Below are positions 23,434 through 48,753 of a DNA stretch of 54,138 bases, piece after piece. Made by a program: the position numbers and the translations under genes. The DNA lies in contig DASRYE010000041.1 in NCBI GenBank assembly GCA_035653915.1, positions 1-54,138 of the forward strand, read 5' to 3'. Position 1 is the first letter of the stretch. The number at the start of each line of letters is the position of its first letter. Source of the stretch: Novosphingobium sp. GTDB lineage: Bacteria; Pseudomonadota; Alphaproteobacteria; Sphingomonadales; Sphingomonadaceae. The notes beneath the pieces are model-generated. The model worked only from the letters and a program-made list of their open reading frames with translations, had not been told where the DNA came from and ran no database searches.

Positions 23434-23955
23434 TCACGCCCCCTGTTCTGGCAGGGAAACCTTCTCACGAGACAATCCGAAATAGTGTCTTCCAAAATAA
23501 AACAATCCGTCATCCTCGTCGGATATATGCACCCTGTTGACCACACAATACATGACACAGTGGCTACCAACATCCACGGTGCTGGCTATATGGCATAGAA
23601 AGCTGACCAATGCGTCGCCCAGAAAGGGCGGCTCCGATTCGCCGAAACACCAGTCACCACCTGCGAATTTTTCATCGACGGCAAGCGAGCGGTTTCCAAA
23701 GCGGGCTGCCATGCCGGCATGATGCGCACGCAACACATTGATAGCCAATGCCCCATTGGCCATTATCGTCGCCAATGAGCCGGAACGCCTGTTGATGCAA
23801 ACCAGCAGCGTCGGCGGTGCATCGGTAACACTGCACACCGCTGTCGCCGTCAATCCGGCCCGGCCTGCCGGGCCATCCGTGGTAATCAAATTGACCGCCG
23901 CCCCCAGCCGGGACATTGCCTCGCGAAAGAGGGGGGAATCCATTGGCGCGTTCAT
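23434..23955 (-). CDS. Flavin reductase (HpaC/RutF/IacG-like)
   Basis: FREAMSRLGAAVNLITTDG..GLTATAVCSVTDAPPTLLVCIN, GSH. Confidence 0.93.
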   Translation of the reverse strand: MNAPMDSPLFREAMSRLGAAVNLITTDGPAGRAGLTATAVCSVTDAPPTLLVCINRRSGSLATIMANGALAINVLRAHHAGMAARFGNRSLAVDEKFAGGDWCFGESEPPFLGDALVSFLCHIASTVDVGSHCVMYCVVNRVHISDEDDGLFYFGRHYFGLSREKVSLPEQGA

Positions 23956-24411
23956 AAAAATCCGCTCCCAATATATTTTATATATCTGAGGTGTAATTCA
24001 AAAAACACTTTCAATGTATTATGCACCCATCATTCGGGTGCCTTGTGCCAAATACCGAAAAATTCGATATCGCCAGCCATTTCGAAGCCGTATAATCCGG
24101 CACATGGGCATATAATTCAAATTTATATTAATTATTTTAAAAATTATCCGAACTAATGGAGCGATGCATTGGCATGAAGGCACCCATTGATTATCGAAAT
24201 AACCAAATCAACACATCGGAAATGACCGATTATTGTTCATATATACATTACCTGTTGACGAGCCCCCGCATCCAAGGTGAATGCAGGCGCGGGTTCATGA
24301 GAGTCGGCCAGGCCACACACCGCCCGCACGCTGGCTTTCAAGCGGCCCCCCGCACTCCCACCAACCCGTTGCAGATATAACGCCGCAAAAACGAACAGGA
24401 CGAGGCCCGCA

Positions 24412-24762
24412 ATGCCCCATATCGTCATCGAATACGCGCATACTCCATCCGCCCAGCAAGCCATCGATGGCTTGCTCGATGCGGTTATCGCGCGCGTCAG
24501 GGAATCGCCCATAATCGACATCGACAGCCTGAAACTGCGCGCAACGCCCATCCATCACTACCGTGTCGGCGGCGGGCATGCCCCGTTCATTCACACAACG
24601 GTTGCCCTGATGCGTGGCAAGGATGCGCGATCGATCAACGAGCTGTCCACGGACCTGTTCCGCACCATCGCATCGCACTTTCCAGACATTCAGCAGATTA
24701 CCGTCGATGTGCGCGAAATGGATCCCGCGCCTTACCGCAAGCGGGGAAAAGAGCATGGCTGA
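24412..24762 (+). CDS. 5-carboxymethyl-2-hydroxymuconate isomerase-like tautomerase
   Basis: N-terminal Pro (MPHIVIEY), LKLRA, FIH..LMRG, ITVDVREMD. Confidence 0.82.
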   Translation: MPHIVIEYAHTPSAQQAIDGLLDAVIARVRESPIIDIDSLKLRATPIHHYRVGGGHAPFIHTTVALMRGKDARSINELSTDLFRTIASHFPDIQQITVDVREMDPAPYRKRGKEHG

Positions 24763-24813
24763 GCTGATGATCGGCGCCCCCGTCGATCACGGCGCTGGCC
24801 GAGGCGCGCATCG

Positions 24814-24902: not shown

Positions 24903-25550
24903 GTGGATTGCAGCAAAATGCCCAATGCAAGTAGCGGGAACGGCCAGCGCGCCCGGCGCACATCAACCGCCAACCCCTCGAATAAAAAGAACAAGATGCT
25001 CCTGCGATTGGCCGGCGCGCTGGTCGATTCTCCGGGGGCGAGCCTGGAATGGCTGGCGGAAATGGCCGAAACCAGCCGAGGCACGCTTTACCGGATCGCC
25101 AGCTCACGAGAAGAACTGGTTGTGCACCTGCGCAACTTCGTGAAGGAAACGCTCAACCTGGTGATGGACAGTGCCGCTCTGGAGACCGGAGAACCGCTGG
25201 CTGTCCTGTCGTCGTTGACGCGCGGTTTTCTGCAATATCCAACGCTGTGCACGTTCTCCGCAATGTCTGCACATATGAACACGCCCAACGGGGAACCCGC
25301 CGTCGACATCGAGGACTCATACAAGTCCCGCATGCGGGAATTCTTCGGCACATGGCAGAAGCAGGGCTATTTTCGCGAGGATGTCCCGACGGAATGGCTG
25401 GTTCTCTTTTACGATCACGTCACCCAGGCCGCCTCGGAAGGCATCCGGACAGGCAGGCTGGCCAGCGCCCAGGCCGAACCGCTCGTGATCGAATCCTTCC
25501 TGGGCGGGGCCAGGGCCAGACAGGATCCGGCGGCCGCCACCCAGGATTAA
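24903..25550 (+). CDS. TetR/AcrR family regulator (NfxB-like)
   Basis: HTH ASLEWLAEMAETSRGTLYR..SREEL; C-terminal QKQGYFRED; start codon uncertain. Confidence 0.85.
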   Translation: MDCSKMPNASSGNGQRARRTSTANPSNKKNKMLLRLAGALVDSPGASLEWLAEMAETSRGTLYRIASSREELVVHLRNFVKETLNLVMDSAALETGEPLAVLSSLTRGFLQYPTLCTFSAMSAHMNTPNGEPAVDIEDSYKSRMREFFGTWQKQGYFREDVPTEWLVLFYDHVTQAASEGIRTGRLASAQAEPLVIESFLGGARARQDPAAATQD

Positions 25551-25575: not shown

Positions 25576-26406
25576 TCAGGCGCCTTGTGCCAGGCGGAAA
25601 TCATAGTGGATCACGGCCCCTTCGGCGGTCTTTTCCGGGGCCACGATCAAGCCGGGCTTCACGCCGAACACCGCATCGCCCTCGAGATAGGCATCCCCGG
25701 CGATGAAGATATGCGTCACCAGCCGGCGATGCCCCGGCGCCGAGATCATGAAATGGATATGCGCCGGGCGGTTGGGGTGGCGCCCCAAGGCCCCCAGCAT
25801 CTTGCCCACCGGGCCGTCATCCGGGATCGGATAGGAAACCGGCAGCACGGTCTGGAAGCTGTAGGCCCCATCCACGCCGGTGCGGAAGGTGCCGCGCAGA
25901 TGGCCCTCGGGCTGATCGGGGTCCTGCACATCGTACAGCTGGTTGGGGGCCGTCTGCCATACTTCGATCAGGGCGCCGGCGATGGGCATGCCATCATGGC
26001 CGGCGATGATGCCTGAAACCAGCGTCGGCGTGCCCGCTTCCGGGCGCATGAGGATCGAAGCGCCCATCGCCAGCCCCGGCTGCAGGCCCGAATAGAACGG
26101 CCCGAACACCGTCGAGGGCGTCACCTCCGGCCCATCATCATGGTTGATCGCATCGACCAGCATCGACACGCCCAGCGTGTCCGAAAGCAGGATGAACTCC
26201 TGCCGCCTGTCGTTGCTGATCTGGCCTGCGGCGGTGAGAAAGGCGATCGCCTGGCCCCATTCGGCTTCAGTCAGCCTGGTTTCGCGCACCACCGCATGCA
26301 CATGGCGGATCAGCGATGTCATGATCTGCCGGAGGCGCGGATCGGGCGCATCGGCCATCGCGGCAATCACGGCTTCGGTCAGTTCGGGAAAAATCGGTGT
26401 CGTCAT
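25576..26406 (-). CDS. Intradiol dioxygenase, hydroxyquinol 1,2-dioxygenase type
   Basis: RQEFILLSDTLGVS, TVFGPF, YDVQ, YPIP, RPAHIH; adjacent to maleylacetate reductase. Confidence 0.9.
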   Translation of the reverse strand: MTTPIFPELTEAVIAAMADAPDPRLRQIMTSLIRHVHAVVRETRLTEAEWGQAIAFLTAAGQISNDRRQEFILLSDTLGVSMLVDAINHDDGPEVTPSTVFGPFYSGLQPGLAMGASILMRPEAGTPTLVSGIIAGHDGMPIAGALIEVWQTAPNQLYDVQDPDQPEGHLRGTFRTGVDGAYSFQTVLPVSYPIPDDGPVGKMLGALGRHPNRPAHIHFMISAPGHRRLVTHIFIAGDAYLEGDAVFGVKPGLIVAPEKTAEGAVIHYDFRLAQGA

Positions 26407-26417: not shown

Positions 26418-27485
26418 TCAGGCCCCTGCCGTCTCTGGCGGCAAGCCGGACCAGGCCCGCGCGATCAGCTCGCGGATCGCGCCGCGCTCGATCGCGCGCG
26501 GGTTCCAGTAAGGGTTTGCCACGGCAATATCCGCGGCCTTGTCGATCCCTGCCTCGGGCATCCCCAGCGCCTTGAGCCCGCTGGGGGCACCAACCGCGCG
26601 GCCAAGCTCGAACAAGGCGCGCGCCGGATCCTCTGTGCCGAGCGCCGTTTTCAGCGCTGCCGCCGCCTGCGGCACGGCGGGCGCGTTGTAGGCCCAGGCA
26701 TGTGGCAGGACGATGGCATGCGTCTCGGCGTGGGGCAGATTGAAACTGCCGCCCAGCGCGTGGCACAGCTTGTGATGCAAGGCCATTCCGACCGCCCCCA
26801 GCACCGCCCCGCACAGCCAGGCGCCATAGAGGGCATCGCTGCGCGCCTCGCCATCGCCAGGATTGGCCGCGATCTTCGGCAGCGCGCCGGCCAGCGCCTT
26901 GATCCCGGCCCCCGCCATCATCTGCATGATCGGATTGGTGTCGCGGGCATAAAGCCCCTCCACCGCATGGGCGATCGCGTTGATCCCGCTGGTGCCCGAC
27001 ATCGCCGCCGGCAGGCCAAGCGTGAGATCGACATCGTAGAGCACCAGTTCAGGCAGCACCTTGCTGCTGGAAAGCGTGGTCTTCACGCCATTTTCGGTCT
27101 GCCCCAGCACCGGGGTCATTTCGGAACCGGCATAGGTTGTGGGAATGGCAACCTGCGGCAAATCGGTCCGCAGCGCCAGCGCCTTGGCCAGACCGATGGT
27201 CGACCCGCCACCAAAGGCGACGAGACAATCGGCCCCATTGGCCTGCACGACCTCCAGCGCCAGGGCCGTGACATCCGTCGGCGTATGCATGGTGGCGCCG
27301 TCATAGTGCGCAACGATGGCCGAGGCGCCCGCGCAGGCTTTGGCGGCTTGCCGCGCCTGCTGCGGTGTGGACAGCAGCAGCGCCCTGGTGCCGCCCACCA
27401 TGGCAATCGCCTCGCCCAGGCGAGACAGGCTCCCCTGCCCGAAGATCACATGGGCAGGGTTTCCGCGATAGGTAAAGGCTCGCAT
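26418..27485 (-). CDS. Maleylacetate reductase
   Basis: GATMHTP, GGGSTIGLAKALALRT, PTTYAGSE, NAIAHAVE, LHHKLCH-LGG-FNLPHAETH, NPYWNPR; alternative starts at 27494 and 27503. Confidence 0.93.
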   Translation of the reverse strand: MRAFTYRGNPAHVIFGQGSLSRLGEAIAMVGGTRALLLSTPQQARQAAKACAGASAIVAHYDGATMHTPTDVTALALEVVQANGADCLVAFGGGSTIGLAKALALRTDLPQVAIPTTYAGSEMTPVLGQTENGVKTTLSSSKVLPELVLYDVDLTLGLPAAMSGTSGINAIAHAVEGLYARDTNPIMQMMAGAGIKALAGALPKIAANPGDGEARSDALYGAWLCGAVLGAVGMALHHKLCHALGGSFNLPHAETHAIVLPHAWAYNAPAVPQAAAALKTALGTEDPARALFELGRAVGAPSGLKALGMPEAGIDKAADIAVANPYWNPRAIERGAIRELIARAWSGLPPETAGA

Positions 27486-27499
27486 ATCAGGCATCGCTT

Positions 27500-28750
27500 T
27501 CAAGACAGCTCCTTGAGGCAAGACAGGTCCTTGAGGGCAGTATGCGTATCGCCAAGCCTGCCGGGATCGGGCGAAAGTCCGGCCTCGATCAGTTTCCGGC
27601 CCTGGACATAGTCCCTGGTGGCGTTGACGGCATCGATGGCAATGATCCTGCCGCCCTTCAGATAGATCACCGAGAAGCTGCGGTTCATGGGGTCGCCACG
27701 CAGCACGGTCTGGTCATAACCAACGGAGAGCCCGGCTGTTTGCAGGCGCAAATCATATTGGTTGGACCAGAACCAGGGGAAGGCACGGTAGGGCTGCGGG
27801 TCGCCGAGGATGGATCTGGCAACGGCAAGGGCCTGGTCGTTGGCATTCTGGACCGATTCGACCCGCATCGAGATCCCGGCCCAAGGGTTGGCAAAGGCCG
27901 CGCAATCGCCGATGGCATAGACCCCGGGCAACGAGGTGCGGCAATATTCATCCACCGCAACGCCGTTGCCCCCTTGCGCGCCGGCGGCGATCAGCGGGGC
28001 CACGGCCGGCACAATGCCAATGCCAACGATCACCGCGTCGGCGGGAATTTCGCTGCCATCTGCCAGCCTGACCGCAGAGACGCGCCCTTCGCCCAGCAAC
28101 GCCTCGACACCAGCGCCGGTGCGCAAGTCCACCCCGTGCGCGCGATGCTCCCTTTCATAGAAATCGGACAGTTCCGGCCCGGCGACGCGCGCAAGCACGC
28201 GCGGCAGCGCTTCGAGCAGAGTGACCCGGCAGCCGAGCTTGGTGAGGACCGCCGCCGCTTCCAGCCCGATATAACCACCGCCGATAACGACGATATCCCT
28301 CACCCCACCATCGATTTCGCCCATCAACCGATCGCAATCGGCGCGAGTGCGCACCGCATGGATGCCGTCCAGCCCCGCACCGGGGCAGGACAGCCGGCGC
28401 GGATCGCCGCCGGCTGCCCAGACAAGCTTGCCAAAACCAAAGGTCGCGCCATCTGCGAGGGTCAGCAACCGGGCCACGGGATCGACCGCGACCACTTCCT
28501 GGCCGAGATGCAGCTCCACGCCCTTTTCGGCCCAGAAATGCGGCGGGCGGATGTAGAGCCGCTCGAAGGTCTTTTCCCGGGCGAAATACTCCTTGGAAAG
28601 CGGCGGCCGCTCATAGGGGGGCTCGGGCTCGCGGCCGATCATGGCCACCGAACCGGCAAAGCCCCCCTGACGCAGCGCAATCGCACATTGCGCCCCGCCA
28701 TGCCCGGCGCCAACGATCACCACGTCGGCGCAAGTCTCTCCCATCTGCAT
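27500..28750 (-). CDS. GR-type NAD(P)H:ferredoxin reductase
   Basis: [44 protein letters not shown]. Confidence 0.93.
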
Positions 28751-28768: not shown

Positions 28769-29323
28769 TTATTGTGTCAGCAGAACCTTCTCGATCTGCG
28801 ATTTGGTCCAATTGTCCGGCAGATCTGCGATGAACAGGTTTTCGGTGCGGTAATGGCTGATCTTCCACTCGCCCCCAACCTCGCGGAAACGCACGCGAAC
28901 GCGGCTGGAGCGCAGGAGCGAAGTGCCGTTCTCATAAATCCACGGCTGGAACTGCGGCCAGATCCCTTCGGCGCCCTCCGCCGTCGCCCAGACCTGACCC
29001 AGGCAGACGTAATGGGTGTTGAAGTTCTGGGTAGCATTCACCTCCGCGTAGAAACGCCGCATGTGCGCCCTGATCGCCTCGCGCCCTTCCATGCGGCCAA
29101 AGCTTGCAGCATGCGCTCCACCGACACCTTCCCACACCGCATCTTCGGTGAAGCAATCGCCAATGGCCGCGATCCGCTCGTCCAGTGTGCCCTCATAGAC
29201 CGGATAGGGCACGTCGCAGAGGAACATGTAGCGGGCGATCACGCGCCGGGCACCGGCTTCTGCCACAAGTTCAGAGATTACCTTCCAGAGTTCCTCGTTG
29301 GTTTTTTCGGCAGGCATGGACAT
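28769..29323 (-). CDS. iacI: SnoaL/NTF2-like protein, IacI-like
   Basis: RYM-LCD, FTEDAVWEGVG..FGR, H, WKISHYRTENLF resemble the recalled IacI family; directly after iacCD-like genes. Confidence 0.65.
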   Translation of the reverse strand: MSMPAEKTNEELWKVISELVAEAGARRVIARYMFLCDVPYPVYEGTLDERIAAIGDCFTEDAVWEGVGGAHAASFGRMEGREAIRAHMRRFYAEVNATQNFNTHYVCLGQVWATAEGAEGIWPQFQPWIYENGTSLLRSSRVRVRFREVGGEWKISHYRTENLFIADLPDNWTKSQIEKVLLTQ

Positions 29324-29334: not shown

Positions 29335-29835
29335 TTACAGCAAATATCCAATGCCATGCAGAAAATCATCGGCATTGATAAAGGTTACCACTTTGCGATC
29401 GATCCTCAGCTCGCCGGCTTCGCGCACAATGCGATAATCGACATCGGCGGCGAGCACGCGGGTCCGATCGTATTTGTATTCGACGATGATCATCGCCGCG
29501 CGCAATGCGATGGCTTGCGCGCCGGCAGCCTCGCCTTCGACAAAGCGGGACAGCGTGCGCACGGTGCGCGCGGGCGGCGCTGAGGACATCGAGAAGCCGG
29601 AGAGCAGGCGCTTCACCCGCATCTCGCGCATCGGCCCATCATCATAGGCGATATTGAGTACCTCGGCGTAGTCGACAGCGGCGACATCGGCCGGAATGAT
29701 GTAGAGCCCCCCTGCGGTCCAGAGCTTGAGCCAGGGCTTGTACTGGTGGCGATCGAGCAGTTCCGCCTCCCGCCAGATCAGCCGGGCTGCCTCCTCAAGG
29801 GTAATCACCGGCGCTTTTTCGATCACCGCACTCAT
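29335..29835 (-). CDS. iacD: Ring-hydroxylating dioxygenase beta subunit, IacD-like
   Basis: EAELLD..W-LW..YIIP, AYDD..R-RV-RL, RTVR, RKVV, C-terminal GIGYLL; overlaps the alpha-subunit stop. Confidence 0.8.
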   Translation of the reverse strand: MSAVIEKAPVITLEEAARLIWREAELLDRHQYKPWLKLWTAGGLYIIPADVAAVDYAEVLNIAYDDGPMREMRVKRLLSGFSMSSAPPARTVRTLSRFVEGEAAGAQAIALRAAMIIVEYKYDRTRVLAADVDYRIVREAGELRIDRKVVTFINADDFLHGIGYLL

Positions 29836-31109
29836 GCCGTCATCATCCTTTTCCACATCTGGTAGGCGGCGCGCATCCCCACCTCGGACGAGGCATCGCC
29901 GGCATTGTGCCCGGGCTCTGGCCCCCCTTCCGGCGCCGCAACCCCGCGATTGAGCATGATGTAGACATCATCGCCCGCCTGCGCGCCGCGCTGGACGCGT
30001 TCCCAGCCTTCGGCATCATCGGGCGTGCCAAAGCCCATCGGCCCCTGAAAATGCTCGTGCAGTCGCATGCGCATCCGGTTGGCCGCGGCCGGCCCCCCTT
30101 TCATGCCGATGGCCACATGGCGGATTTCCGTTTCATTGACCGCAATCGGGCGCAACACGCGGAAAAAAGCCATTGAGCAGGCAATGTTGGGGAACATGTT
30201 GAGGTTGAAGCCCCCACCCCCGACCGCGCGCACGATCCTGCGCACGTCCAGATCATCGCGCCCTTCGGCGGCCAGTTCGGCAGCAAGATCCGCGAAACGT
30301 TCCGGGATCGGCGCGTCGAGGTTTTCCTCCAGATCGATCAGGTCGGGCATCATCACCGCGACCGAATGGCCGTTGCCCAGATCCTCGACCCAGCCACCCG
30401 AACCGATCAGGTCCATCAGGTTTTCCGTCTCTGTGTCGAGTGAATCGAGGAACGTCTTGTGGACGATCGGGAAATGATAGGAGTCGGTGGTGTTTTCCAA
30501 CTGGATCTTCCAGTTGCCCGGAAAACGGAACTTGTGCTCGCCCAGCGTTGTCACGCCAAAGCCGGCCCCCTGCTTCATGAACAGGTCGATCCATTTGCGC
30601 GCCGGCCCGAGGTAATCCGCCAGCGGCATGATATCATCGTTAAAGGTAGCGAAAATCATGCCATTATAGGATTCGGTCCGCAGCGACACGAGGCCGAACC
30701 GGGACTTGTCGAAATCCTCGGCATAGCCATCCGCATAGGGCACCTTGCGCAGGGCCCCGTTCATATCATAACTCCACCCGTGATAGGGGCAGACAAAGAC
30801 GCTGGTTTTGCCCTGCTTCTTTTCGCAAACACTCGACGCACGATGCCGGCAACGGTTGAGGAGAACATGGATCTTGTCCGCCTTGTCCCGCGTCACGATC
30901 ACCGGCTGGGTGCCGACCCATGAACTCCTGAACGTATTGGGCCCCGGCACTTCGCTTTCGTGCGCAACCCAGACCCAGGTGGATTTGAAAATTCTGTCCA
31001 CCTCCACCTCAAAGATCTGCGGATCGGTATAAAGCGAAGTATGAACGCGGTCCTCGAGAACCAGCGATCCGAAATCACGCGCGCCGGCGTTTTCGCTGAC
31101 CACACCCAT
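29832..31109 (-). CDS. iacC: Rieske ring-hydroxylating dioxygenase alpha subunit, IacC-like
   Basis: CRHR..CPYHGW, ENTTDSYHFPIVH, WIDLFMKQG, HEHFQGPMGFGTPDD, YQMWKRMMTA closely match recalled IacC; ATG at 31109 fits AAGGAG (31115 is the alternative). Confidence 0.85.
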   Translation of the reverse strand: MGVVSENAGARDFGSLVLEDRVHTSLYTDPQIFEVEVDRIFKSTWVWVAHESEVPGPNTFRSSWVGTQPVIVTRDKADKIHVLLNRCRHRASSVCEKKQGKTSVFVCPYHGWSYDMNGALRKVPYADGYAEDFDKSRFGLVSLRTESYNGMIFATFNDDIMPLADYLGPARKWIDLFMKQGAGFGVTTLGEHKFRFPGNWKIQLENTTDSYHFPIVHKTFLDSLDTETENLMDLIGSGGWVEDLGNGHSVAVMMPDLIDLEENLDAPIPERFADLAAELAAEGRDDLDVRRIVRAVGGGGFNLNMFPNIACSMAFFRVLRPIAVNETEIRHVAIGMKGGPAAANRMRMRLHEHFQGPMGFGTPDDAEGWERVQRGAQAGDDVYIMLNRGVAAPEGGPEPGHNAGDASSEVGMRAAYQMWKRMMTA

Positions 31110-31135
31110 TCTCATTCTCCTTCAATCAAACCGGG

Positions 31136-40566: not shown

Positions 40567-41838
40567 CTAGCCCAAGGTTCGCTCATACAATTTATAGGCA
40601 TCGACCAGCGCCTCACGCCCGCGAACGCCAATGGGAACGGCAGGGGTCTCGATCCCCGCCACCAGCTCGAAGCGCGACCGGTCACCATGCAGCGCCTCGG
40701 CGATAAGCTGCCCGTTCAGCACCGCCCAGGCGACGTTGGAGGCCAGCGTGTAATAAACCTTGGGGCTGGCCTCGCCGATATGCGGCAGGAATTTGAGGTC
40801 GGCCGCCCCCTTGCCCTCCCAGGCATAATCGATCTGCACATCCGCAAGTTCGGGATAGATCGCCAGCATCCGCTTGCGCAGCACATGCTTGCGCTTTTCC
40901 TCAGTATCCAGGCTGATCGGGGAAACGCTGCCGAAAACCAGCCGATTGTCCCCGCTCAGGCGGTAGAAATCGATGAACATGCGGGTGTCGTTGACCGCCA
41001 GCCGTTCCTTCATCAACGCAGCGGCGCGCGCGCTTCCCAGCGGCTCTGTCGCGATCACCCAGGCATAGGCGTTGAAGATCTTCTGCGCGATGTGCCGATC
41101 GATGCGATGTATATTGGCATTGGTCGCGATGATCAGCTTCTCGGCCATCACCGTGCCGGTAGCGGTCCTGACTTTGACGCCAGCGCCAGAGGCATCGTAG
41201 GACAGCGCATCGCTATCCTCGAATATCTGAACGCCGGCCTGAGCGACCACCTTGGCAAAGCCCACCGCGAATTGCAGCGGATTGAGATGGACCATGTCCA
41301 TATCGAAAAAACCGCCGTAATAGGCTTCGGTGCCGATAAGATCGGCCAGTTCCGCACGATCGTAATATTTGACGTTCTTACGATATCCGCGCGCCAGGAA
41401 CTTTTCCGCCCCCAGCCGCAAATGTTCGGCATGTTTCGGCTTGTGGGCAACATGGCCAACGCCCTTGCGCATATCGCACTCGATGGCGTTGCGCGCGATG
41501 ATCTCGCCGACCAGCCGGCAGGCCTCGCTGCTCAATTCCCACATGCCGCTGGCCCGGTCCGCGCCGATCGGCTTCTCGAAATCGTCCGGATCGTGGCCGA
41601 ACAGGCTTTCCATGTGCCCCCCGTTGCGCCCCGAGGCGCCCCAGCCCACGCGGTTGCGTTCCAACAGCACCACCCTGGTGCCCTTCTGCGCCAGATGCAG
41701 GGCCGTTGACAGGCCGGCAAAGCCACCGCCGAGCACGCAGACATCGGCGCGGATATCCCCGGCCAGGCGCGGATAATCGACCAGCCGCGATGCGACACTC
41801 GCTGCGTAGAAGGAGTTTACATGCTGTGTTTTCGTCAT
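40567..41838 (-). CDS. PuuB/OrdL-like FAD-dependent amine oxidase
   Basis: SFYAAS..L-G...DVCVLGGGFAGLSTA, GWGASGRNGG, HLNPL, YRLS-DNRL-FG, YAW-G, LPHIG. Confidence 0.85.
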   Translation of the reverse strand: MTKTQHVNSFYAASVASRLVDYPRLAGDIRADVCVLGGGFAGLSTALHLAQKGTRVVLLERNRVGWGASGRNGGHMESLFGHDPDDFEKPIGADRASGMWELSSEACRLVGEIIARNAIECDMRKGVGHVAHKPKHAEHLRLGAEKFLARGYRKNVKYYDRAELADLIGTEAYYGGFFDMDMVHLNPLQFAVGFAKVVAQAGVQIFEDSDALSYDASGAGVKVRTATGTVMAEKLIIATNANIHRIDRHIAQKIFNAYAWVIATEPLGSARAAALMKERLAVNDTRMFIDFYRLSGDNRLVFGSVSPISLDTEEKRKHVLRKRMLAIYPELADVQIDYAWEGKGAADLKFLPHIGEASPKVYYTLASNVAWAVLNGQLIAEALHGDRSRFELVAGIETPAVPIGVRGREALVDAYKLYERTLG

Positions 41839-41900: not shown

Positions 41901-43082
41901 TTAATTACAATGTATTGATCGCAATTCCGCCAAAGCTGCGCGCATAAAGGCATCCGCATTCGCCGAGTCCGAAATGTCGTTGATCATCCGCTGGGACAGC
42001 ATCACCAGCACGCTGTCTGTGGCAGGGTCCATGAACAGCGAGGTGCCGGTTCCGCCCCACCAGCCAAAGCGGCCGGGATGCGGCGAGACATGGTTTGCGG
42101 CCTGCACCACGCACAGGCCCAGCCCCCAGCCCAGCGCATCCCAGAAGCCGGGAAACTGCGGCGACCGCTGCTTGGCCTGCGGGCCAACATGGTCGCGCCG
42201 CATTTCCGCAACAAGGCCTTGCGCAAGCAGGCGCCGCCCCTGGAAGGTTCCGCCATCCAGCAGCATCCGCCCGAATTTGGCGAGGTCTGGCGCGGTGGAA
42301 ATCAGCTCGGATCCGCCCTGGTCCATCGGCCGTGCCTGCGTGCGGCGCGGCGCATCGGCGATCTGGTAATAGCGCCCGCCCTGCGCGGCATAGAGGCTCG
42401 CCAGCCGCCGTTCACGCGCCGGGTCGAGCCGGAAGCCGCTGTCGTGCATGCCCAGGGGTTCAAAAATGCGCCGCGCCATGAACGATCCCAGGCGCTCCCC
42501 CGCAACCCGCTCGATCAGGATACCGGCGACATCGATGCCGATATGATAGAGCCAGCGCTCGCCCGGCTGGCTGAGGAGAGGCAGCGAGCCGATGCGGCGC
42601 ATATATTCATCACCGTCTCCTGCGAAATTGAACGCCGAAATGTGCAGCGCCTGCAAGCGGGACGACACGCTGGACCACCCGGCATAATCGAACCCCAGGC
42701 CGAAGGTCTGGCTCAGCAGCCCGCGCAAGGTGACTGGCCCTTTCGCGGGCACCGTATCGGCAAGCGGGGCAGCGGCCGTTCGCAGCACCCTGCGATCGGC
42801 CAGTTCGGGCAGCCACCGCCCCAGGTCCTCGTCAAGCGCCAGCAGGCCATCGTCCACCAGCATCAGCGCCGCAACCGCCGTCACAGGCTTGCTGACCGAG
42901 GCGATGCGAAACAGCGTATCAGGCTGCATCGGCGCGCCGCTTGCCAGATCCTTGCAGCCGGCGGCATGGATCCGCACTTGCCCGGAACGCTCGACAAGCG
43001 CGACCATCCCGGGTGCATGGCCATCACGGACCCGGCTTTCAACGGCCTGGATCCAGTCGGCGCCATCGGTCAGCGAAGGCAT
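41901..43082 (-). CDS. Serine hydrolase, beta-lactamase fold (family VIII esterase/amidase)
   Basis: FRIASVSK (SxxK), PGERWLY, IFEPLGM, FGWWGGTGT. Confidence 0.9.
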   Translation of the reverse strand: MPSLTDGADWIQAVESRVRDGHAPGMVALVERSGQVRIHAAGCKDLASGAPMQPDTLFRIASVSKPVTAVAALMLVDDGLLALDEDLGRWLPELADRRVLRTAAAPLADTVPAKGPVTLRGLLSQTFGLGFDYAGWSSVSSRLQALHISAFNFAGDGDEYMRRIGSLPLLSQPGERWLYHIGIDVAGILIERVAGERLGSFMARRIFEPLGMHDSGFRLDPARERRLASLYAAQGGRYYQIADAPRRTQARPMDQGGSELISTAPDLAKFGRMLLDGGTFQGRRLLAQGLVAEMRRDHVGPQAKQRSPQFPGFWDALGWGLGLCVVQAANHVSPHPGRFGWWGGTGTSLFMDPATDSVLVMLSQRMINDISDSANADAFMRAALAELRSIHCN

Positions 43083-43086: not shown

Positions 43087-44247
43087 TCAATCCAGGCTGG
43101 AGCGCAATACAAGCGCGCAGATCGCGGCGCCGAAGCAGGCGGCTGCGCTTACCCAGCCCACGGCCGCCAGGGAGATCCGGTCCGCGATCACCCCGCCCAG
43201 CAGCGGGCTGAGCGCACCGGCGAAATAAACCGCAAAGCCCGACAGCGTTACCGCGCGCCCCTGATTGTCGAGCGCGGCCCCGGCGCTGAACAGATAGGGC
43301 ATCACGAAGAAGGCCGACATGCCGTAAAGGAAGATGCCCGTCGCGAACCAGACCATCGCGCCGCTCGCGCCGATCGACAGCCCCGCCAGGCAGCCCAGCA
43401 AAATGCCAAGCGCGAGCGGCAACGCCACTCCGAACCTGCGATCGAGAAAACCGGCCAACAGCGAACCGATGATGTTGAAGACACCGGACAGGCCAAGCAC
43501 GATCCCGACGGTATCGACATCGAACTTCCTGATCGCCGCGACACTGAGCGAGAAACTCCACAACATCTGCAGGCCGCCGTTGGCCAGCGCACACATCAGC
43601 AACAGCACCCACAGCGCGTAAGCCGGTTTGGGCTCCAGCTCATGCTGCTCGAACTCGGCCGTGAGCGAAGGCCTGGGACAGCCAAAGACCGCAAGCGCCG
43701 CCGCCGCCGCCAGGCACAGCGCAACCAGCAGCCCATAGATCGGCACAAAGCCGTATTTGAGCACAGCCGATGGCCAGACCACAAAGCCAAGGCCATAAAC
43801 AACGCTGGCAACGATAAAGGACGCGCTCATCACCCGCACACCGGCATGATGCTGCGCAGCCCAATAAGCCGCCGAAGCATAGAGAACGCCGCTGCTGAGG
43901 CCCGCCACGATCCGGCAGACAACGAACCAGGCCACACCATAAGAAAGGCAAGACAGGATATTGCCGGCAACGGTGATCACCAGAGCCCAGAAGCACAGGC
44001 GCGCCACGTCGATGCGGCTGAAAACATTGGCCAGCCCCAGAGCGGTGAAGGCCGAGAAAATCACCTCGGCCGTGACGATGCCACCAGCGGCAGCTTCCGA
44101 CAGCCGATAGATGCGCGACGCCACCTCGATCACGAACGGCGCCACGAACAATCCGCAGGCCCCGATCGTCAACAACAGCGGACAAAGGATATAGGCGGCC
44201 CAACTCGACCCAAAGGTCCGGGGAGATTCCATCGCTATACTTGCCAT
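43087..44247 (-). CDS. MFS transporter
   Basis: About 12 hydrophobic segments, RIVAG, GFLDRRFG, GGVIADR; RBS GAGGTG. Confidence 0.85.
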   Translation of the reverse strand: MASIAMESPRTFGSSWAAYILCPLLLTIGACGLFVAPFVIEVASRIYRLSEAAAGGIVTAEVIFSAFTALGLANVFSRIDVARLCFWALVITVAGNILSCLSYGVAWFVVCRIVAGLSSGVLYASAAYWAAQHHAGVRVMSASFIVASVVYGLGFVVWPSAVLKYGFVPIYGLLVALCLAAAAALAVFGCPRPSLTAEFEQHELEPKPAYALWVLLLMCALANGGLQMLWSFSLSVAAIRKFDVDTVGIVLGLSGVFNIIGSLLAGFLDRRFGVALPLALGILLGCLAGLSIGASGAMVWFATGIFLYGMSAFFVMPYLFSAGAALDNQGRAVTLSGFAVYFAGALSPLLGGVIADRISLAAVGWVSAAACFGAAICALVLRSSLD

Positions 44248-44266: not shown

Positions 44267-44650
44267 TCAGCTGCCGCCACCCGGGCTCCAGGTGCCCTTC
44301 TGAACGATCAGCCATGCACCATCGATCTTGTGGAGGATGAAGACGCTGCGCATGTCATGCCCCTCCAGCCCGTTTTCCTCGATCGCGACATTGGCAAGCG
44401 TGCCATACTGATCGACCCGGACGATCCTGCCCTCGAAATCGGGGCTGCTCTCATGCGTCGGCGGAGCCTTGCGCATGTAATCGGCCACAAAGGCGCCCGC
44501 ATTGGGGATCACCATGAACTGGCCGCCGAAATGCCCCGTCATCACCGCTTGCGCGTGAAAGGCGCTGGCGACCAGATCGGGATCGGAGTCGCGAATGCCA
44601 TTGATGTATTTGAATACGACCGTCTCGATCGCGCCACGTTCGTCACTCAT
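44267..44650 (-). CDS. NTF2-like (putative lumazine-binding 2) protein
   Basis: AI..V..YING....D......AFH-QA, L-KIDG-W-IVQK. Confidence 0.75.
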   Translation of the reverse strand: MSDERGAIETVVFKYINGIRDSDPDLVASAFHAQAVMTGHFGGQFMVIPNAGAFVADYMRKAPPTHESSPDFEGRIVRVDQYGTLANVAIEENGLEGHDMRSVFILHKIDGAWLIVQKGTWSPGGGS

Positions 44651-45233
44651 TGCCTATTCCTTCCACTCGCAACCTGGCTTCATCCTCATGGACAAGATCG
44701 TCGATCGTTTCGTCGTAAACGAACTTGTTGCCGCCGATTTTCAAATACCCCTGAAAAGAAGGCAGCTCTGCGGCGCCATACTGGTTGGCAATCAAGTGAA
44801 TGTGCTCCTCCCCAACCTTGTCCAGCGCCAGAAATCCGTCGATATCCATCAGGAAATCGCGGTGCGGTATTTCATGGTCGTTGAAGAAGCGGGATTTGGC
44901 GATGGCCTTGGCTTCCACTTCGCTCTTCGCCGCGATCACTTCAAACGCATGGCGCTCGAAGCTTTCCTCCCGGAAATACCCACCCATATTGACGAAAAAC
45001 AGCCTGGCCTCGCCTTGCGAAGGCCCCGAACCGATGGTCACATCATAGCCATCCACCCAGTTGACGCGACGGATGACATCGATGTGCAAAAGCTCCTGGT
45101 CCGCAAACCAACGATTTGCTATTCCCGCAAAGGCTTCTTCCGGTTTTTCGACGACAGCGAACTGAACATCGTGAATTTCGATATTCGCGCCGGGCGCCGT
45201 ACCTCCCACGAAGAACATGTAAAGATTTTTCAT
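44643..45233 (-). CDS. DUF1543 domain protein
   Basis: LYMFFVGG..ANIEIHDVQF..WF..LHID; second repeat LFFVNMGGY..E-H..AKAIAK..HRD. Confidence 0.82.
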   Translation of the reverse strand: MKNLYMFFVGGTAPGANIEIHDVQFAVVEKPEEAFAGIANRWFADQELLHIDVIRRVNWVDGYDVTIGSGPSQGEARLFFVNMGGYFREESFERHAFEVIAAKSEVEAKAIAKSRFFNDHEIPHRDFLMDIDGFLALDKVGEEHIHLIANQYGAAELPSFQGYLKIGGNKFVYDETIDDLVHEDEARLRVEGIGNE

Positions 45234-45286: not shown

Positions 45287-47518
45287 CTAGAACTTCACCT
45301 TGCCAGTCGCGCCGAAGGTGCGTGGCGGCGCCCACTGGATGACATCGCCCTGATACTGCGAGAACAGCGCAACCGCATAATCGGTGTTCAGCAGGTTCTT
45401 GCCCCAGAGAGTGATGCCGAATTTTCCGCCCTTCGACGTCCAGCCCACTTGCGCCCCCAGCAAGCTATAGGCAGCCTGCTTCAGGCGGCCATCAGGCTCG
45501 GCATTCCAACCGCTGTTGTAATTGTAGGTGGTGTTGATCTGGAAATCGCCCACTTGGCTTGGAATGGTATACGTCGCCGAAGCCGTAATGGTAAGTTTCG
45601 GTGCAAACGGAACCCGGTTTCCTGTCGCATCGCCGGTCGAATATGCCGTACCCCCTCCTTCTGACAGGGGGATCGATGTGGTGTAATCGGCATTCGGGTA
45701 ATAGGTGAAGGTCGCATGCAGCAGGCTTGCCCCCGCATGCAGGCTGAAGCGGGGCGTCAAAACCGCATCGGCGGCGATGTCGGCACCATAGAAGCGGGCC
45801 CTTGCCCCATTGCTGATATCCAGGATTCCGGTCTGGAAGCTTTGCACCTGGATATTGCTGTAATTGTAGAGAAACCCCGCGACATTCAACCGAAACCGCT
45901 TATCCCTTGTCTGAGCCTTCACGCCGATTTCATAGGCGTCGAGCTTTTCCGGTTCATATGGCACCACCTCATATTTGCCCGTTACGGCATTATAATTCGT
46001 GATGCCGGGGTTAAACCCGCCACTTTTATAGCCACGGTTATAGGAAGCATATGCCAGAATCTGCGGGCTAAAGCTGTGATCGAGCGACACCCGCCAGGTT
46101 GGCGCATGAAACCACTTGTGCCCGCTGGCCGTCACGTCAGGAACGGTGGAGCCGACCTCAAGCGTCTGGGAGTCGAGAAAAGCCGACCGCCGCTCCGTCG
46201 TAAAGCGGATACCGCCGGTCAGGTGGGTTTCGGGCGTGATCGCCCAAGTGGCCTGCCCATAGGCAGCAAAGGAATCCGTCTTGATCGTCGCATAGTCGAT
46301 CAGATCCGTGACCGGATAGTAAAGCCCCCCGTAGAGATGGACCGGATCGTATTTTGCGGTTTCGTGGAAATAATACAGGCCGGCAGTCCATGTCACAGCT
46401 CCACCGGATGGCGACGAGAACTGCAACTCCTGGCTGAATTGCTCATGCGGCTCGTTCAGAGAAATATTCTCCGCATAAGACGGATTGGGCGTGAGCGCTC
46501 CATCTTCCACCGTAAGGGATTCGGTTCTCTGGAAGGCGGTGATGCTCTCGATATGAACCTTTTCGAGATCCCATTCGCTCGTCAACGACACGCCATAGCT
46601 GCGAATGTAGCCATAGGGATCGTAATAGCCATTGAGATCATGCGGCCGAAGATTCGTGCCCGTGCCGCCAAGCGAAACGGTGCCCGGCGCCGAGGCCAGA
46701 ACCGGGTCATACCGGACATAGCCGTAGTTGCCGGCAAGCGTGAACTTCAGATTGCTGCCCGGTTCCCAGAGCAGTTTCGAACGGATGAAGATCTTGCGCG
46801 TCTTGTCGATGTCTTTGCCGGTCGCCTCGTTGCGGCCGTAGCCGGAGGCCTGATCGCTGAAATCCACCGCGACATTCGCCGCGAGGTTTTTCGTCACTTC
46901 CCCGGTCAGGTAGGCACTGGCGGTCAGCGTTTCATAGGAGCCATACCCCAGGGTGGCATTGCCGCTGGCCGTGTGCGAGGGATCGAGGGTGCGGATCTGG
47001 ATCAGGCCGCCTGTGGCATTGCGCCCGAACAACGTGCCTTGCGGCCCGTTGATGACCTCGACCGCCTTCACATTGCCGAAATCGGCAGCACCGCCCACCA
47101 TCGAGGCCTGGTAAACGCCATCGATATAAACCGCGACCGCGCTTTCGATGCCAGGCCCGGTCGCCGTTGTGCCGATCCCGCGCAGATGCGGCTGAGACCA
47201 GCCGCCTTCCTCGGCAAACGTGAGGCTGGGCGCCAGCATATTCAGATCCGCAACGCTGGAAACATTCGATTTCTCGAGCGTTTCGGCCGTGGCCGCGGTC
47301 ACCGAAATCGGCACTTTCTGGAGATTTTCGCTGCGGCGCTGGGCCGTCACGGTAATCTCGCCCACGGCAGGCGCCGCCTCGGCGGTCGACGTCGCGGCAG
47401 TCTCGGCAACCGCAGTCTCGGCAATGGCAGATGAGGACCAGGAAACGAGCATGGTAGCTACAAGCACCGCCGCGACAGAGACTCCATCCGACAGCGAAGA
47501 TCGCGTAATGTTTTTCAT
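45287..47518 (-). CDS. TonB-dependent receptor
   Basis: EITVTAQRRSENLQKVPISVTA, YIDGVY, GPQGTLFGRNATGG, YKSGGFN, C-terminal PPRTFGATGKVKF; RBS GAGGG. Confidence 0.95.
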   Translation of the reverse strand: MKNITRSSLSDGVSVAAVLVATMLVSWSSSAIAETAVAETAATSTAEAAPAVGEITVTAQRRSENLQKVPISVTAATAETLEKSNVSSVADLNMLAPSLTFAEEGGWSQPHLRGIGTTATGPGIESAVAVYIDGVYQASMVGGAADFGNVKAVEVINGPQGTLFGRNATGGLIQIRTLDPSHTASGNATLGYGSYETLTASAYLTGEVTKNLAANVAVDFSDQASGYGRNEATGKDIDKTRKIFIRSKLLWEPGSNLKFTLAGNYGYVRYDPVLASAPGTVSLGGTGTNLRPHDLNGYYDPYGYIRSYGVSLTSEWDLEKVHIESITAFQRTESLTVEDGALTPNPSYAENISLNEPHEQFSQELQFSSPSGGAVTWTAGLYYFHETAKYDPVHLYGGLYYPVTDLIDYATIKTDSFAAYGQATWAITPETHLTGGIRFTTERRSAFLDSQTLEVGSTVPDVTASGHKWFHAPTWRVSLDHSFSPQILAYASYNRGYKSGGFNPGITNYNAVTGKYEVVPYEPEKLDAYEIGVKAQTRDKRFRLNVAGFLYNYSNIQVQSFQTGILDISNGARARFYGADIAADAVLTPRFSLHAGASLLHATFTYYPNADYTTSIPLSEGGGTAYSTGDATGNRVPFAPKLTITASATYTIPSQVGDFQINTTYNYNSGWNAEPDGRLKQAAYSLLGAQVGWTSKGGKFGITLWGKNLLNTDYAVALFSQYQGDVIQWAPPRTFGATGKVKF

Positions 47519-48087
47519 TCTTCCCTCATATTTTGTTTTATTGAAGATGCAGTGTGTTCGGCGACTCCAACCCTCGAGCACATAAGTCTCTTCGGACGCA
47601 ATACGGACCCTTATTTACAAGGGTATTTGCCCGAAATTCACGTCCGATCCTCCACAAACATCATTACATCAGGGAGATGGGCGTGAGAACATCGCTTTTT
47701 ATTATTCTGCCCATTCGCACGATCGATACAGCATCCAGCGCGTTTACAGATCACTTTCGCAGCGACACGGTTTACGCATCCAAATAAATGCCATTAATTC
47801 TCTGCATTACATATATTTTGAGAACGCTGGGACGCGACATGCCAAATCGCCGGACGGCTACAGCTCCGACAAAATGCGCATCGCAGATAAGTTTTTCGGC
47901 TTCCTCCAAATATTCCACCGAAACCAGTGCGGATAATTTACAGAAATTCACTCCCGCACGGCAACGCATCGTCACAATACGTCACAATACAAGGAAAACA
48001 GGAGAAGCATCGGAATGCATCCATCTGAAAACACACGCTGACAGATACATTCCGAGAGAAATATATTTTCAAAGCAATATATTGCTA

Positions 48088-48753
48088 TCAAGCGAAGGAT
48101 TTTTGGATATCCGCCACCAGCGCGCTGATCTGCGCCCGCGCTGCAGCGAGGGATTCCTCGAAATAGTCCTTCTTCGAGAGGGCCCCATAGAGCGATACAG
48201 CATCGATATGCGCCACACCAAGGTGAGATAAGGGCTCGCGCAAAGCGGCGATGGCAGCACCGGCGCCGCTCTCCACATCCCCGCTTTCCCGGGATCCTGC
48301 CGAAGTGGCGATCACCAGGCGCTTGCCCGGCGCCAGCAGGCCCTTTTCCCCGCCGGTGACGGAAAAGGTGAGGCCCACGCGCACGACATTGTCGATCCAC
48401 GCCTTGAGCTGGGCCGGCACGCCGAAATTGTAGACCGCGACCCCGATCACGATCACATCGGCGTTCAGCAGTTCCTGCGCCAGCACATCGCTTTCCGCCA
48501 ATGCGGCGCGAATGGCATCATCATGCGCGGCCGGATCGGAAAACGACCCCCTCAACCAGTCGACAGTGATCGCGGCCGGCGGATTCACGCCAACATCGCG
48601 CTCGACAATCACGTCGTTCGGCCGGGTTTCGCGCCAGCGATCAAGAAAATATCCGGTAAGTTCACGCGAATGGGAACCGGCAAACTGTTGATCGGATCGA
48701 TTCGGCTGCGGACTGGAACTCACGTGAAGGATATTCAGCGGCGCATTCGACAC
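48088..48753 (-). CDS. azoR: FMN-dependent NADH-azoreductase / quinone reductase
   Basis: ILHVSSSP..SRELT, RDVG-NPP, SD-L--EL--AD, YNFGVPAQLKAWID..RVGLTF. Confidence 0.85.
   Translation of the reverse strand: MSNAPLNILHVSSSPQPNRSDQQFAGSHSRELTGYFLDRWRETRPNDVIVERDVGVNPPAAITVDWLRGSFSDPAAHDDAIRAALAESDVLAQELLNADVIVIGVAVYNFGVPAQLKAWIDNVVRVGLTFSVTGGEKGLLAPGKRLVIATSAGSRESGDVESGAGAAIAALREPLSHLGVAHIDAVSLYGALSKKDYFEESLAAARAQISALVADIQKSFA

What the first reader, a model, noticed from the sequence alone, without database searches (positions are those of the whole stretch)
23434..48753. Non-canonical iac-like island wired to hydroxyquinol: candidate pathway for hydroxylated/N-methylated indoleamines (serotonin/5-HIAA-like)
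Seen: IacA-, IacC-, IacD-, IacH- and IacI-like genes and a flavin reductase. The iacCDI-like genes share an operon with maleylacetate reductase and hydroxyquinol 1,2-dioxygenase, and no catABC genes are in the window. Upstream lie an aryl-acetaldehyde dehydrogenase, three amine/amino-acid oxidoreductases, a serine hydrolase, an MFS and a TonB receptor. Known: the canonical iac route converts indole-3-acetate to catechol. Inference: the same chemistry on a 5- or 6-hydroxyindole would give 1,2,4-benzenetriol, which is exactly the substrate of the lower pathway present. Amine oxidation plus ALDH would funnel serotonin, 5-hydroxytryptophan or methylated relatives (bufotenine, melatonin) into it. 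I know of no described cluster with this layout; the substrate is a hypothesis.
Basis: partly seen in the sequence, partly recalled or inferred. Interest (0 to 1): 0.88.

Follow-up and report, generated by a model that had tools for sequence, protein, structure and literature searches.

The report
Auxin-breakdown island rewired for hydroxyindoles
A soil bacterium carries a 25-kb gene island that joins most of the known auxin-breakdown genes to amine-removing enzymes and to enzymes that open a three-hydroxyl benzene ring, a pairing seen in other bacteria too, which likely lets it consume hydroxylated indoles such as serotonin, though no substrate has been tested.

Summary
The genes are there and intact, in a low-GC block beside tRNA-Phe of a Novosphingobium-genus genome. 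IacC is a true ortholog nested among Novosphingobium iac clusters. IacD/I/H/G are orthologs, and the IacA belongs to a separate LysR-linked subclade. The dioxygenase is hydroxyquinol-type and follows iacCDI, a reductase and maleylacetate reductase with gaps of 18 bp or less.

An uncharacterised Rieske oxygenase plus ARD-fold cupin sits in the operon instead; the pair recurs with the same IacA in Acetobacter aceti.

The iac–hydroxyquinol pairing recurs in 3 of 33 IacC-bearing relatives and six other Alphaproteobacteria, from at least three dioxygenase lineages. It often comes with an amine-to-acid funnel built from unrelated enzyme classes. That convergence fits a 5- or 6-hydroxytryptamine substrate, serotonin being the obvious one.

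No substrate is shown, and the methylated-indole idea is weaker. The scan noted the iac–hydroxyquinol pairing before on other DNA (e1-7237342). Ten paper searches found no description of it. Verdict: new variant of iac, interest 0.66.

The parts
23150..23225 (+). tRNA-Phe(GAA) at the left edge of the low-GC block; no repeat of its 3' end at the right edge
23434..23955 (-). Flavin reductase (IacG/HpaC-like), predicted partner of the IacA-type monooxygenase
   Evidence: PF01613; 46% to Klebsiella IacG
24412..24762 (+). CHMI-like tautomerase-superfamily protein; possible analogue of the tautomerase gene in Burkholderia-type iac loci
   Evidence: PF02962 E 4.5e-11; tautomerase genes inside L010 and L083 iac loci
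24903..25550 (+). Probable TetR-like regulator; label from sequence inspection only, start uncertain
   Evidence: ORF and GC3 0.74; no Pfam or NCBIfam match
25576..26406 (-). Hydroxyquinol 1,2-dioxygenase (HQDO), lineage of the Sphingobium hydroquinone operon
26418..27494 (-). Maleylacetate reductase (MAR)
   Evidence: Fe-ADH fold; 72% to Sphingobium cloacae maleylacetate reductase
27500..28750 (-). GR-type ferredoxin reductase, in place of IacF as in several Novosphingobium iac loci
   Evidence: 71-74% to reductases beside other iacCD genes
28769..29323 (-). IacI (SnoaL-like)
   Evidence: 65% to G154 IacI
29335..29835 (-). IacD, dioxygenase beta subunit
29832..31115 (-). IacC, Rieske dioxygenase alpha subunit; Rieske and Fe motifs intact
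31136..31762 (-). Rare ARD-fold cupin with no Pfam match; paired with Rieske2
31875..33053 (-). Rieske2: uncharacterised Rieske oxygenase, fold nearest CntA/Stc2
33189..34142 (-). LysR regulator, 40-48% to the LysR genes beside the same IacA subclade
34223..35320 (-). IacH amidase; amidase-signature motifs intact
35328..36827 (-). Aryl-acetaldehyde dehydrogenase (StyD-like); 45-50% to ALDHs of other iac loci
36844..38010 (-). IacA-family group D flavin monooxygenase, LysR-linked subclade
38153..39511 (-). L-amino acid deaminase-like flavoprotein; 33% to the oxidoreductase beside 'tyramine oxidase subunit B' in the Martelella iac-HQDO locus
   Evidence: 266 bits to 5fjm
39514..40515 (-). NAD(P)-dependent amine dehydrogenase family protein
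   Evidence: 197 bits to 6iaq, 182 to amine dehydrogenase 6iau
40567..41838 (-). DAO-family flavoprotein amine oxidoreductase; best model L-pipecolate oxidase, below its cut-off; 'PuuB-like' is a recalled label
41901..43082 (-). Serine hydrolase of the beta-lactamase-fold esterase family; SxxK motif intact
43087..44247 (-). MFS transporter
44267..44650 (-). Second SnoaL/NTF2-like protein (PF12893)
44643..45233 (-). DUF1543 protein
45287..47518 (-). TonB-dependent receptor
48088..48753 (-). FMN-dependent NADH azoreductase/quinone reductase-like protein; could protect hydroxyquinol from oxidation (inference)

Best explanation
The island joins iac auxin-catabolism genes to an amine-removing module and to hydroxyquinol dioxygenase plus maleylacetate reductase, and it likely degrades a 5- or 6-hydroxylated tryptamine or tryptophan derivative, most simply serotonin via 5-hydroxyindole-3-acetate (5-HIAA). 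Inferred route: (1) The TonB receptor and MFS import the compound, and the serine hydrolase would strip an N-acyl or ester group if there is one. (2) The amine dehydrogenase or one of the two flavoproteins deaminates the side chain, and the ALDH gives 5-HIAA. (3) IacA with the flavin reductase oxidises C2 to the oxindole. (4) C3 hydroxylation, done by IacE in the known route, would be done by Rieske2, possibly with the cupin; this is the weakest step. (5) IacH, IacCD and IacI with the reductase replace the ring nitrogen and side chain by hydroxyls, which on a 5- or 6-hydroxy ring gives 1,2,4-trihydroxybenzene. (6) HQDO and MAR give 3-oxoadipate, which enters the pcaIJF genes elsewhere in the genome. 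Shown: gene identities, clade membership, gene order, recurrence. Inferred: every substrate assignment.
For: IacC nests in a 28-row Novosphingobium IacC clade (SH-aLRT 99). HQDO is hydroxyquinol-type and is the genome's only match at E<=1e-60. An HQDO lies beside iac in 3 of 33 IacC-bearing genomes of the genus: G154, G111, and G099 across a contig break. It also does so in 6 of the 31 plasmid records with IacC at 53% or more, a lower bound from crossing. Those HQDOs come from three separately supported clades (window 97; G154/G099 99; G111 plus Martelella, Gemmobacter, Sagittula, Azospirillum, Shinella 99). Their loci carry unrelated amine-removing enzymes: a TTQ amine dehydrogenase (G111), TynAB-type genes (Martelella, Gemmobacter, Shinella) and a class III transaminase (Sagittula). 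In Novosphingobium EMRT-2, MAR-HQDO sits beside the amine dehydrogenase operon, about 330 kb from iac on the same plasmid. An aryl-ALDH is in 7 of 8 HQDO-linked loci against 8 of 40 others; an amine-removing enzyme in 5 of 8 against 8 of 40. Amine dehydrogenase + ALDH + iac + catABC in N. aromaticivorans is the matching layout for an unsubstituted tryptamine. Bacterial serotonin to 5-HIAA conversion is documented (PMC12577022, passages). IacA and IacE of C. glathei accept many C3 side chains (PMC7225977). The closest relatives of this IacA lie in A. aceti and on contigs of the same lengths as Rieske2 and cupin relatives.
Against: No substrate or expression data. IacE and IacB were not found: best IacE profile score 164 bits against 355-418 for true members, and no IacB hit, while all 8 other HQDO-linked loci keep both. 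The genome has catABC, so plain IAA could be finished without HQDO. The window's MAR-HQDO are 72-76% like those of a Sphingobium hydroquinone operon and could have arrived as passengers. The counts are biased: five loci were fetched because HQDO was near, those five are one clade, and locus lengths differ (4-60 kb). Ring-hydroxylated substrates were not among those listed as tested for IacA/IacE in the parts of PMC7225977 read. The DOAA-to-catechol intermediates are undetermined (PMC9613470 section 9), so the positions of the two new hydroxyls are inferred. R. rhizoryzae has the same IacA subclade with catABC and no HQDO nearby.
Confidence: 0.5

Rival explanations
1. The substrate is a methylated indoleamine (melatonin, 5-methoxytryptamine, bufotenine or a betaine). 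Rieske2 would remove the O- or N-methyl group, the serine hydrolase the acetyl group, and the IacE step would be done by an unlinked or unassembled short-chain dehydrogenase.
For: The Rieske2 model is nearest to the quaternary-ammonium oxygenases CntA and stachydrine demethylase (TM 0.74-0.79). Best NCBIfam match is glycine betaine monooxygenase, far below its cut-off. The Martelella and Shinella HQDO-iac loci carry a deacetylase-family gene. iacE lies away from iacC in 3 of 5 genomes checked.
Against: Identity to CntA/Stc2 is only 20-24%, and ring-hydroxylating dioxygenases score nearly as well. No formaldehyde-handling gene in the island. No IacE ortholog in the assembled genome.
Confidence: 0.17
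2. The island handles plain tryptophan, tryptamine or IAA and ends at catechol, which the genome's catABC cleave. MAR-HQDO are passengers from a hydroquinone operon.
For: catA, catB, catC and pcaIJF are in the genome. MAR-HQDO are closest to hydroquinone operons. The same IacA subclade sits with catABC in R. rhizoryzae, and some relatives carry the source label 'indole-3-acetate monooxygenase'.
Against: MAR-HQDO follow the reductase gene with a 5-bp gap and without the hydroquinone dioxygenase genes. HQDOs of three lineages were joined to iac. G099 keeps both cat and HQDO-MAR genes beside iac, which suggests two ring products.
Confidence: 0.15
3. The island is two loosely related halves. The lower half (iacH, iacCDI, MAR, HQDO) scavenges already oxidised hydroxy-oxindoles released by plants or other microbes, while IacA, Rieske2, the cupin and the amine enzymes act on some other nitrogen compound.
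For: Two complete Novosphingobium genomes (G095, G241) have iacCDHI but no IacE match, so a stand-alone lower module exists. GC differs between blocks, 0.56-0.60 against 0.63-0.68. IacC is native to the genus while IacA is not. Hydroxy-oxindole acetates in cereals are recalled, not checked.
Against: IacA, ALDH and iacH are contiguous (gaps 16 and 7 bp), and Rieske2 and the cupin lead into iacC. The IacA is in the indole-oxidising family, and in strain La 6 its subclade sits beside indolepyruvate oxidoreductase and cyclase genes.
Confidence: 0.12
4. The monooxygenase is a phenol or resorcinol hydroxylase that makes hydroxyquinol directly, as in the gra or sad systems (recalled: ACAD-fold oxygenase, flavin reductase, HQDO, MAR).
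For: The same four gene types are present.
Against: The enzyme groups with IacA proteins at 54-59% and inside a 37-row IacA clade apart from HsaA-like outgroups. It scores 137 and 99 bits on the HsaA and C2 models against cut-offs of 450 and 650. GraA and SadB themselves were not compared.
Confidence: 0.04

Closest known systems
iac cluster (IAA to catechol): P. putida 1290, A. baumannii, P. phytofirmans PsJN, C. glathei DSM50014
   Same: IacA-family monooxygenase, IacG, IacC, IacD, IacH and IacI orthologs
   Different: No iacB, iacE, iacF or MarR-type iacR in the island; MAR-HQDO rather than catABC next to iacCD; amine funnel, Rieske2 and cupin added
Amine-dehydrogenase-linked iac locus of N. 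aromaticivorans pNL2 (sequence comparison only; no paper on it read)
   Same: Amine-removing enzyme + aryl-ALDH (45%) + iac genes + TonB receptor
   Different: TTQ amine dehydrogenase and catABC there, with iacB and iacE; different deaminating enzymes and a hydroxyquinol exit here
Hydroxyquinol branch of p-nitrophenol and hydroquinone operons (PnpC; Sphingobium cloacae pSCLO_6 operon)
   Same: HQDO 76% and MAR 72%, same order
   Different: The hydroquinone dioxygenase subunits and that operon's ferredoxin are not found in the genome; the pair is placed behind iacCDI
Serotonin conversion by Pseudomonas fluorescens MFY63 (PMC12577022)
   Same: Side-chain oxidation of serotonin to 5-HIAA
   Different: 5-HIAA is the main product there; the words iac and hydroxyquinol do not occur in the main text
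CntA / Stc2 / GbcA Rieske monooxygenases
   Same: Fold (TM 0.74-0.79) and a Glu before the first iron-binding His
   Different: 20-24% identity; paired with an ARD-fold cupin; embedded in an iac operon

Membership tests
iac (IAA catabolism) cluster | IacCD Rieske dioxygenase of the IacC clade | tested here: met
   65-80% identity, nested in the Novosphingobium IacC clade, 64% to A. baumannii IacC. References are orthologs from sequenced loci, not the proteins of the characterised strains.
iac (IAA catabolism) cluster | IacA group D monooxygenase with IacG reductase | tested here: met
   Inside the IacA family, in a LysR-linked subclade (97/95), only 38-46% to Gammaproteobacteria and Novosphingobium IacA
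iac (IAA catabolism) cluster | IacE short-chain dehydrogenase that makes dioxindole-3-acetate | tested here: not met
   Profile of 28 IacE: best genome hit 164 bits against 355-418; genome 91% complete in 349 contigs
iac (IAA catabolism) cluster | IacB | tested here: not met
   Profile of 27 IacB: no hit in the genome
iac (IAA catabolism) cluster | IacH amidase and IacI SnoaL protein | tested here: met
   47-57% and 31-49%
iac (IAA catabolism) cluster | Catechol as ring product, cat genes nearby | tested here: not met
   The neighbouring dioxygenase is hydroxyquinol-type; catABC are on other contigs. The product itself cannot be tested here.
iac (IAA catabolism) cluster | Growth on or induction by IAA | not testable with these tools
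   Needs culture and RNA data
Hydroxyquinol 1,2-dioxygenase | Intradiol dioxygenase of the HQDO clade, paired with maleylacetate reductase | tested here: met
   216-283 bits to the five top PDB entries (PnpC, hydroxyquinol/chlorohydroxyquinol dioxygenases and one unnamed intradiol enzyme) against 127 or less to CatA/ClcA; apart from CatA in the tree; MAR adjacent
Hydroxyquinol 1,2-dioxygenase | Kinetic preference for hydroxyquinol over catechol | not testable with these tools
   Needs assay
Acireductone dioxygenase (ARD) | ARD cupin fold | tested here: met
   Predicted-structure TM 0.74 by query to ARD clusters
Acireductone dioxygenase (ARD) | His-His-Glu-His metal ligands (motif recalled) | tested here: not met
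   By eye on the alignment: first His kept; Phe, Asp and Asn at the other three apparent positions; no PF03079 match
Quaternary-ammonium Rieske monooxygenases (CntA/Stc2/GbcA) | Family-level sequence similarity and N-dealkylation | tested here: inconclusive
   Nearest fold, but 20-24% identity; GbcA model 132 bits against cut-off 670; activity untested

The most novel reading that the evidence does not exclude
This is a complete bacterial pathway for mineralising serotonin or melatonin-type indoleamines, assembled independently several times by joining an amine funnel and a hydroxyquinol exit to iac; in this island a new Rieske oxygenase-cupin pair replaces IacE/IacB.
Probability: 0.25. Interest if true: 0.86.

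Novelty: new variant of a known kind. Interest (0 to 1): 0.66.

Why it matters
Serotonin and its relatives occur in plants, animals and soils (recalled background). The bacterial metabolism found in the papers searched here stops mainly at 5-HIAA. If iac plus hydroxyquinol cleavage is the missing ring-opening route, it gives a gene signature for microbes that remove these signals. It is testable at once in named strains (Sagittula stellata E-37, Azospirillum lipoferum 4B, Martelella AD-3, Novosphingobium EMRT-2). A hydroxy-labelled substrate would also show which ring carbons IacCD oxygenates, an open gap in the iac pathway. The island further points to an iacE-free way of reaching the dioxindole, and to an uncharacterised Rieske-cupin family.

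Tried and rejected
Scans for close copies of the island gave nothing. IacA in genome contigs and the cupin alignment in genome contigs and metagenome contigs found no relative. The cupin was in 0 of 400 class-level genomes and no plasmid. Rieske2 was in 0 of 375 genomes of the genus and 0 of 400 phylum-level genomes. The metagenome scan with the Rieske2 alignment returned 80 loci, only one a full-length family member (46%, 1.8-kb contig), and none had the cupin. The A. aceti neighbourhood could not be read, so it is unknown whether it has iacCD or HQDO.

Complex prediction of Rieske2 with the cupin gave no answer (score 0.00); it is not evidence either way. No RNA holder was listed.

A search for residues shared by HQDO-linked IacC, IacA or IacH gave 4-6 weak columns per protein out of several hundred, not distinguishable from kinship or chance. 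No integrase or transposase was seen in the island, and no repeat of the tRNA 3' end at the right edge (the earlier test used an inexact motif and is disregarded). The promoter scan found 8 sites against 4.1 expected and was not used.

Skatole (ska) clusters were rejected as the match: SkaA is a group E enzyme (PMC13101512, passages). The Marinomonas paper and the root-isolate survey do not mention hydroxyquinol in the parts read. The first 50 kb of E. soli pENTAS01 had no iac genes. The P. phytofirmans iac paper was not held, so what is said of iacA2 and iacY beyond searches is recalled. Supplements were not read; those of PMC9613470, PMC11630574 and PMC7225977 may show iac loci with HQDO or further substrates.
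Full report
Setting. The window is contig C41 of a 3.78-Mb draft genome in 349 contigs, 91% complete. Genomes labelled 'same genus' match named Novosphingobium plasmid records by coordinates, so I treat the host as Novosphingobium. The finding covers a block of 24 genes from tRNA-Phe (23150-23225) to about 48.9 kb, with GC 0.61 against 0.69 in the flanks. No integrase and no tRNA-end repeat was found. Four further soil metagenomes cover 23000-42999 evenly with no joints, so the gene order is not a chimera.

Anatomy. In the direction of transcription: azoreductase-like gene; TonB receptor, DUF1543, SnoaL protein, MFS, serine hydrolase, DAO-family oxidoreductase, amine dehydrogenase, L-amino acid deaminase-like flavoprotein; IacA-type monooxygenase, aryl-ALDH, IacH amidase, LysR; Rieske2, cupin, iacC, iacD, iacI, ferredoxin reductase, MAR, HQDO. 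Then come a TetR-like and a CHMI-like gene on the other strand, and a flavin reductase. All frames are open, and the motifs checked in IacC, Rieske2, the amidase, the hydrolase and the ALDH are intact. From cupin to HQDO the gaps are 20 bp or less. No ferredoxin gene lies in the island; the genome has 8 Fer2-domain matches elsewhere.

Are these Iac proteins? Yes for most. IacC matches 31 plasmid records at 53-80%, then drops to 36%. The loci read around eleven or more of these are recognisable iac clusters, one with RefSeq's 'IacB protein' label. In a 49-row tree the window's IacC sits in a 28-row Novosphingobium clade (SH-aLRT 99). The monooxygenase belongs to the IacA family but not to the Novosphingobium branch. 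It groups with Rhizobium, Paracoccaceae and Burkholderia/Caballeronia copies that have a related LysR beside them (97/95). I could not obtain the proteins of the characterised strains; A. baumannii X4-300 is the nearest stand-in.

What is missing. In the known route IacA makes 2-oxindole-3-acetate and IacE makes dioxindole-3-acetate, which IacCD turns into catechol by undetermined steps (PMC7225977, parts 1-4 of 6; PMC9613470 section 9). Profiles of 28 IacE and 27 IacB sequences found no ortholog in this genome: best IacE score 164 bits against 355-418, and no IacB hit. The draft is incomplete, and iacE lay away from iacC in 3 of 5 relatives checked, so absence is not proven.

The exit. The dioxygenase is hydroxyquinol-type. 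It and MAR are closest, at 76% and 72%, to a Sphingobium hydroquinone operon, whose hydroquinone dioxygenase genes are not in this genome.

Recurrence. IacC was found in 33 and HQDO in 23 of 375 genomes of the genus; 8 have both against 2 expected (kin are not independent). I read the surroundings of IacC in all 33: 31 by genome stretch, G019 and G048 through its plasmid record. HQDO lies beside iac in G154 and G111, and in G099 if two contig ends join as their sequences suggest. Crossing the 31 IacC records with the top 30 of 765 HQDO records gives six more within 14 kb: Sagittula, Martelella, Gemmobacter, Shinella and two Azospirillum. Five of the six were fetched. The HQDO tree places the window's enzyme, the G154/G099 enzymes and the G111-plus-Alphaproteobacteria enzymes in three separately supported clades (quick method), so the link was probably made at least three times.

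The funnel. HQDO-linked loci carry amine-removing genes of unrelated classes: TTQ amine dehydrogenase (G111), TynAB-type genes with an amino-acid permease (Martelella, Gemmobacter, Shinella) and a class III transaminase (Sagittula). The window has an amine dehydrogenase family member and a deaminase-like flavoprotein 33% identical to the Martelella oxidoreductase. In EMRT-2, MAR-HQDO sit beside the amine dehydrogenase operon although iac is far away. Over 48 iac loci, an aryl-ALDH was in 7 of 8 with HQDO and 8 of 40 without; an amine-removing enzyme in 5 of 8 and 8 of 40. Left out were three duplicates of plasmid records, a second G157 locus and Azospirillum B510. These counts overstate the case, because five HQDO loci were chosen for having HQDO, form one clade, and locus lengths differ. 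G154, G099 and A. lipoferum showed no amine enzyme at my thresholds, and eight loci have one without HQDO.

Mechanism. If IacCD puts hydroxyls on the two ring carbons that carried the nitrogen and the side chain (inferred from catechol being the product), a 5- or 6-hydroxy indole yields 1,2,4-trihydroxybenzene and a 4- or 7-hydroxy indole would not. An amine funnel feeding iac with a hydroxyquinol exit therefore points to 5- or 6-hydroxytryptamine; serotonin is the common natural one (recalled). P. fluorescens converts serotonin mainly to 5-HIAA (PMC12577022, passages), so the first half has precedent. I put this reading at 0.5 for the window, lower than I would for the relatives that keep iacE and iacB.

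The distinctive part. Rieske2 and the cupin have no close characterised relative. Rieske2 folds like CntA and stachydrine demethylase at 20-24% identity. The cupin has an ARD fold but seems to lack three of four recalled metal ligands. The two are neighbours in A. aceti. The best relatives of the window's IacA are the A. aceti protein (81%) and proteins on contigs of the same lengths as Rieske2 or cupin relatives (60067 and 59328 bp). So IacA, Rieske2 and cupin probably travel together. The simplest role for Rieske2 is the missing C3 hydroxylation; demethylation of a methoxy or N-methyl substrate is the main alternative.

Literature. Ten full-text searches returned no listing describing iac genes linked to hydroxyquinol or bacterial ring cleavage of 5-HIAA. 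Read: PMC7225977 (parts 1-4 of 6), PMC11373566 (parts 1-2 of 3), PMC9613470 (passages and section 9), and passages of PMC11630574, PMC13101512, PMC11957808, PMC11676955 and PMC12577022. The library lacks most subscription journals, the P. phytofirmans paper was not held, and no supplements were read.

Verdict. The island works like iac but is not a canonical member, since iacE, iacB and the catechol exit fail the test. It is a new variant within a recurring, apparently undescribed iac-hydroxyquinol family, with a specific and cheap test. Interest 0.66.

Noticed in passing
window 31136-33053: Rieske2 and the ARD-fold cupin look like a conserved pair. They have consecutive locus tags in A. aceti (A0U92_02685/02690; Rieske2 in the same 90% cluster, cupin 76%), and relatives of both share longest-contig lengths of 60067, 12843, 6846, 3512735 and 6297755 (Pseudomonas sp. 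Z1-14). Shared length is indirect evidence of co-location.
   Followed up: partly
L059:459-12376 (G236:C129): An iac cluster followed by a cycloisomerase (44% to CatB), MAR (51%) and a divergent intradiol dioxygenase, which resembles a chlorocatechol route and hints at a halo-indole variant; its IacA has a long branch.
   Followed up: no
L014:3275-19120 (Rhizobium rhizoryzae plasmid NZ_CP049249): iac locus with the same IacA subclade, iacCDFGIH and catBA but no iacB in the locus and no IacE match on the replicon; the rest of that genome was not searched.
   Followed up: partly
L072 (G095), L048 (G241): iacCDHI with a reductase and TonB receptor but no iacA or iacB in the locus and no IacE match in two complete genomes: a possible lower-pathway-only module.
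   Followed up: partly
L203:10884-22318 (Novosphingobium EMRT-2 plasmid): MAR-HQDO-MFS beside a TTQ amine dehydrogenase operon, TonB receptor and PQQ dehydrogenase, far from the strain's iac operon.
   Followed up: partly
L071:12313-13821 (G152): The iacA-like gene appears in several pieces, probably frameshifted.
   Followed up: no
L011:14923-31074 (Paracoccaceae La 6 plasmid): The window's IacA subclade with its LysR lies near indolepyruvate oxidoreductase and cyclase genes, an iad-like context by my reading.
   Followed up: no
window 44267-45233: A second SnoaL-like protein and a DUF1543 protein overlap by 8 bp right behind the TonB receptor; no counterpart was seen in the other iac loci compared.
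   Followed up: no
genome C11:32397-34385: A further intradiol dioxygenase (35-42% to CatA) beside a CatB-like gene (41%), not examined.
   Followed up: no
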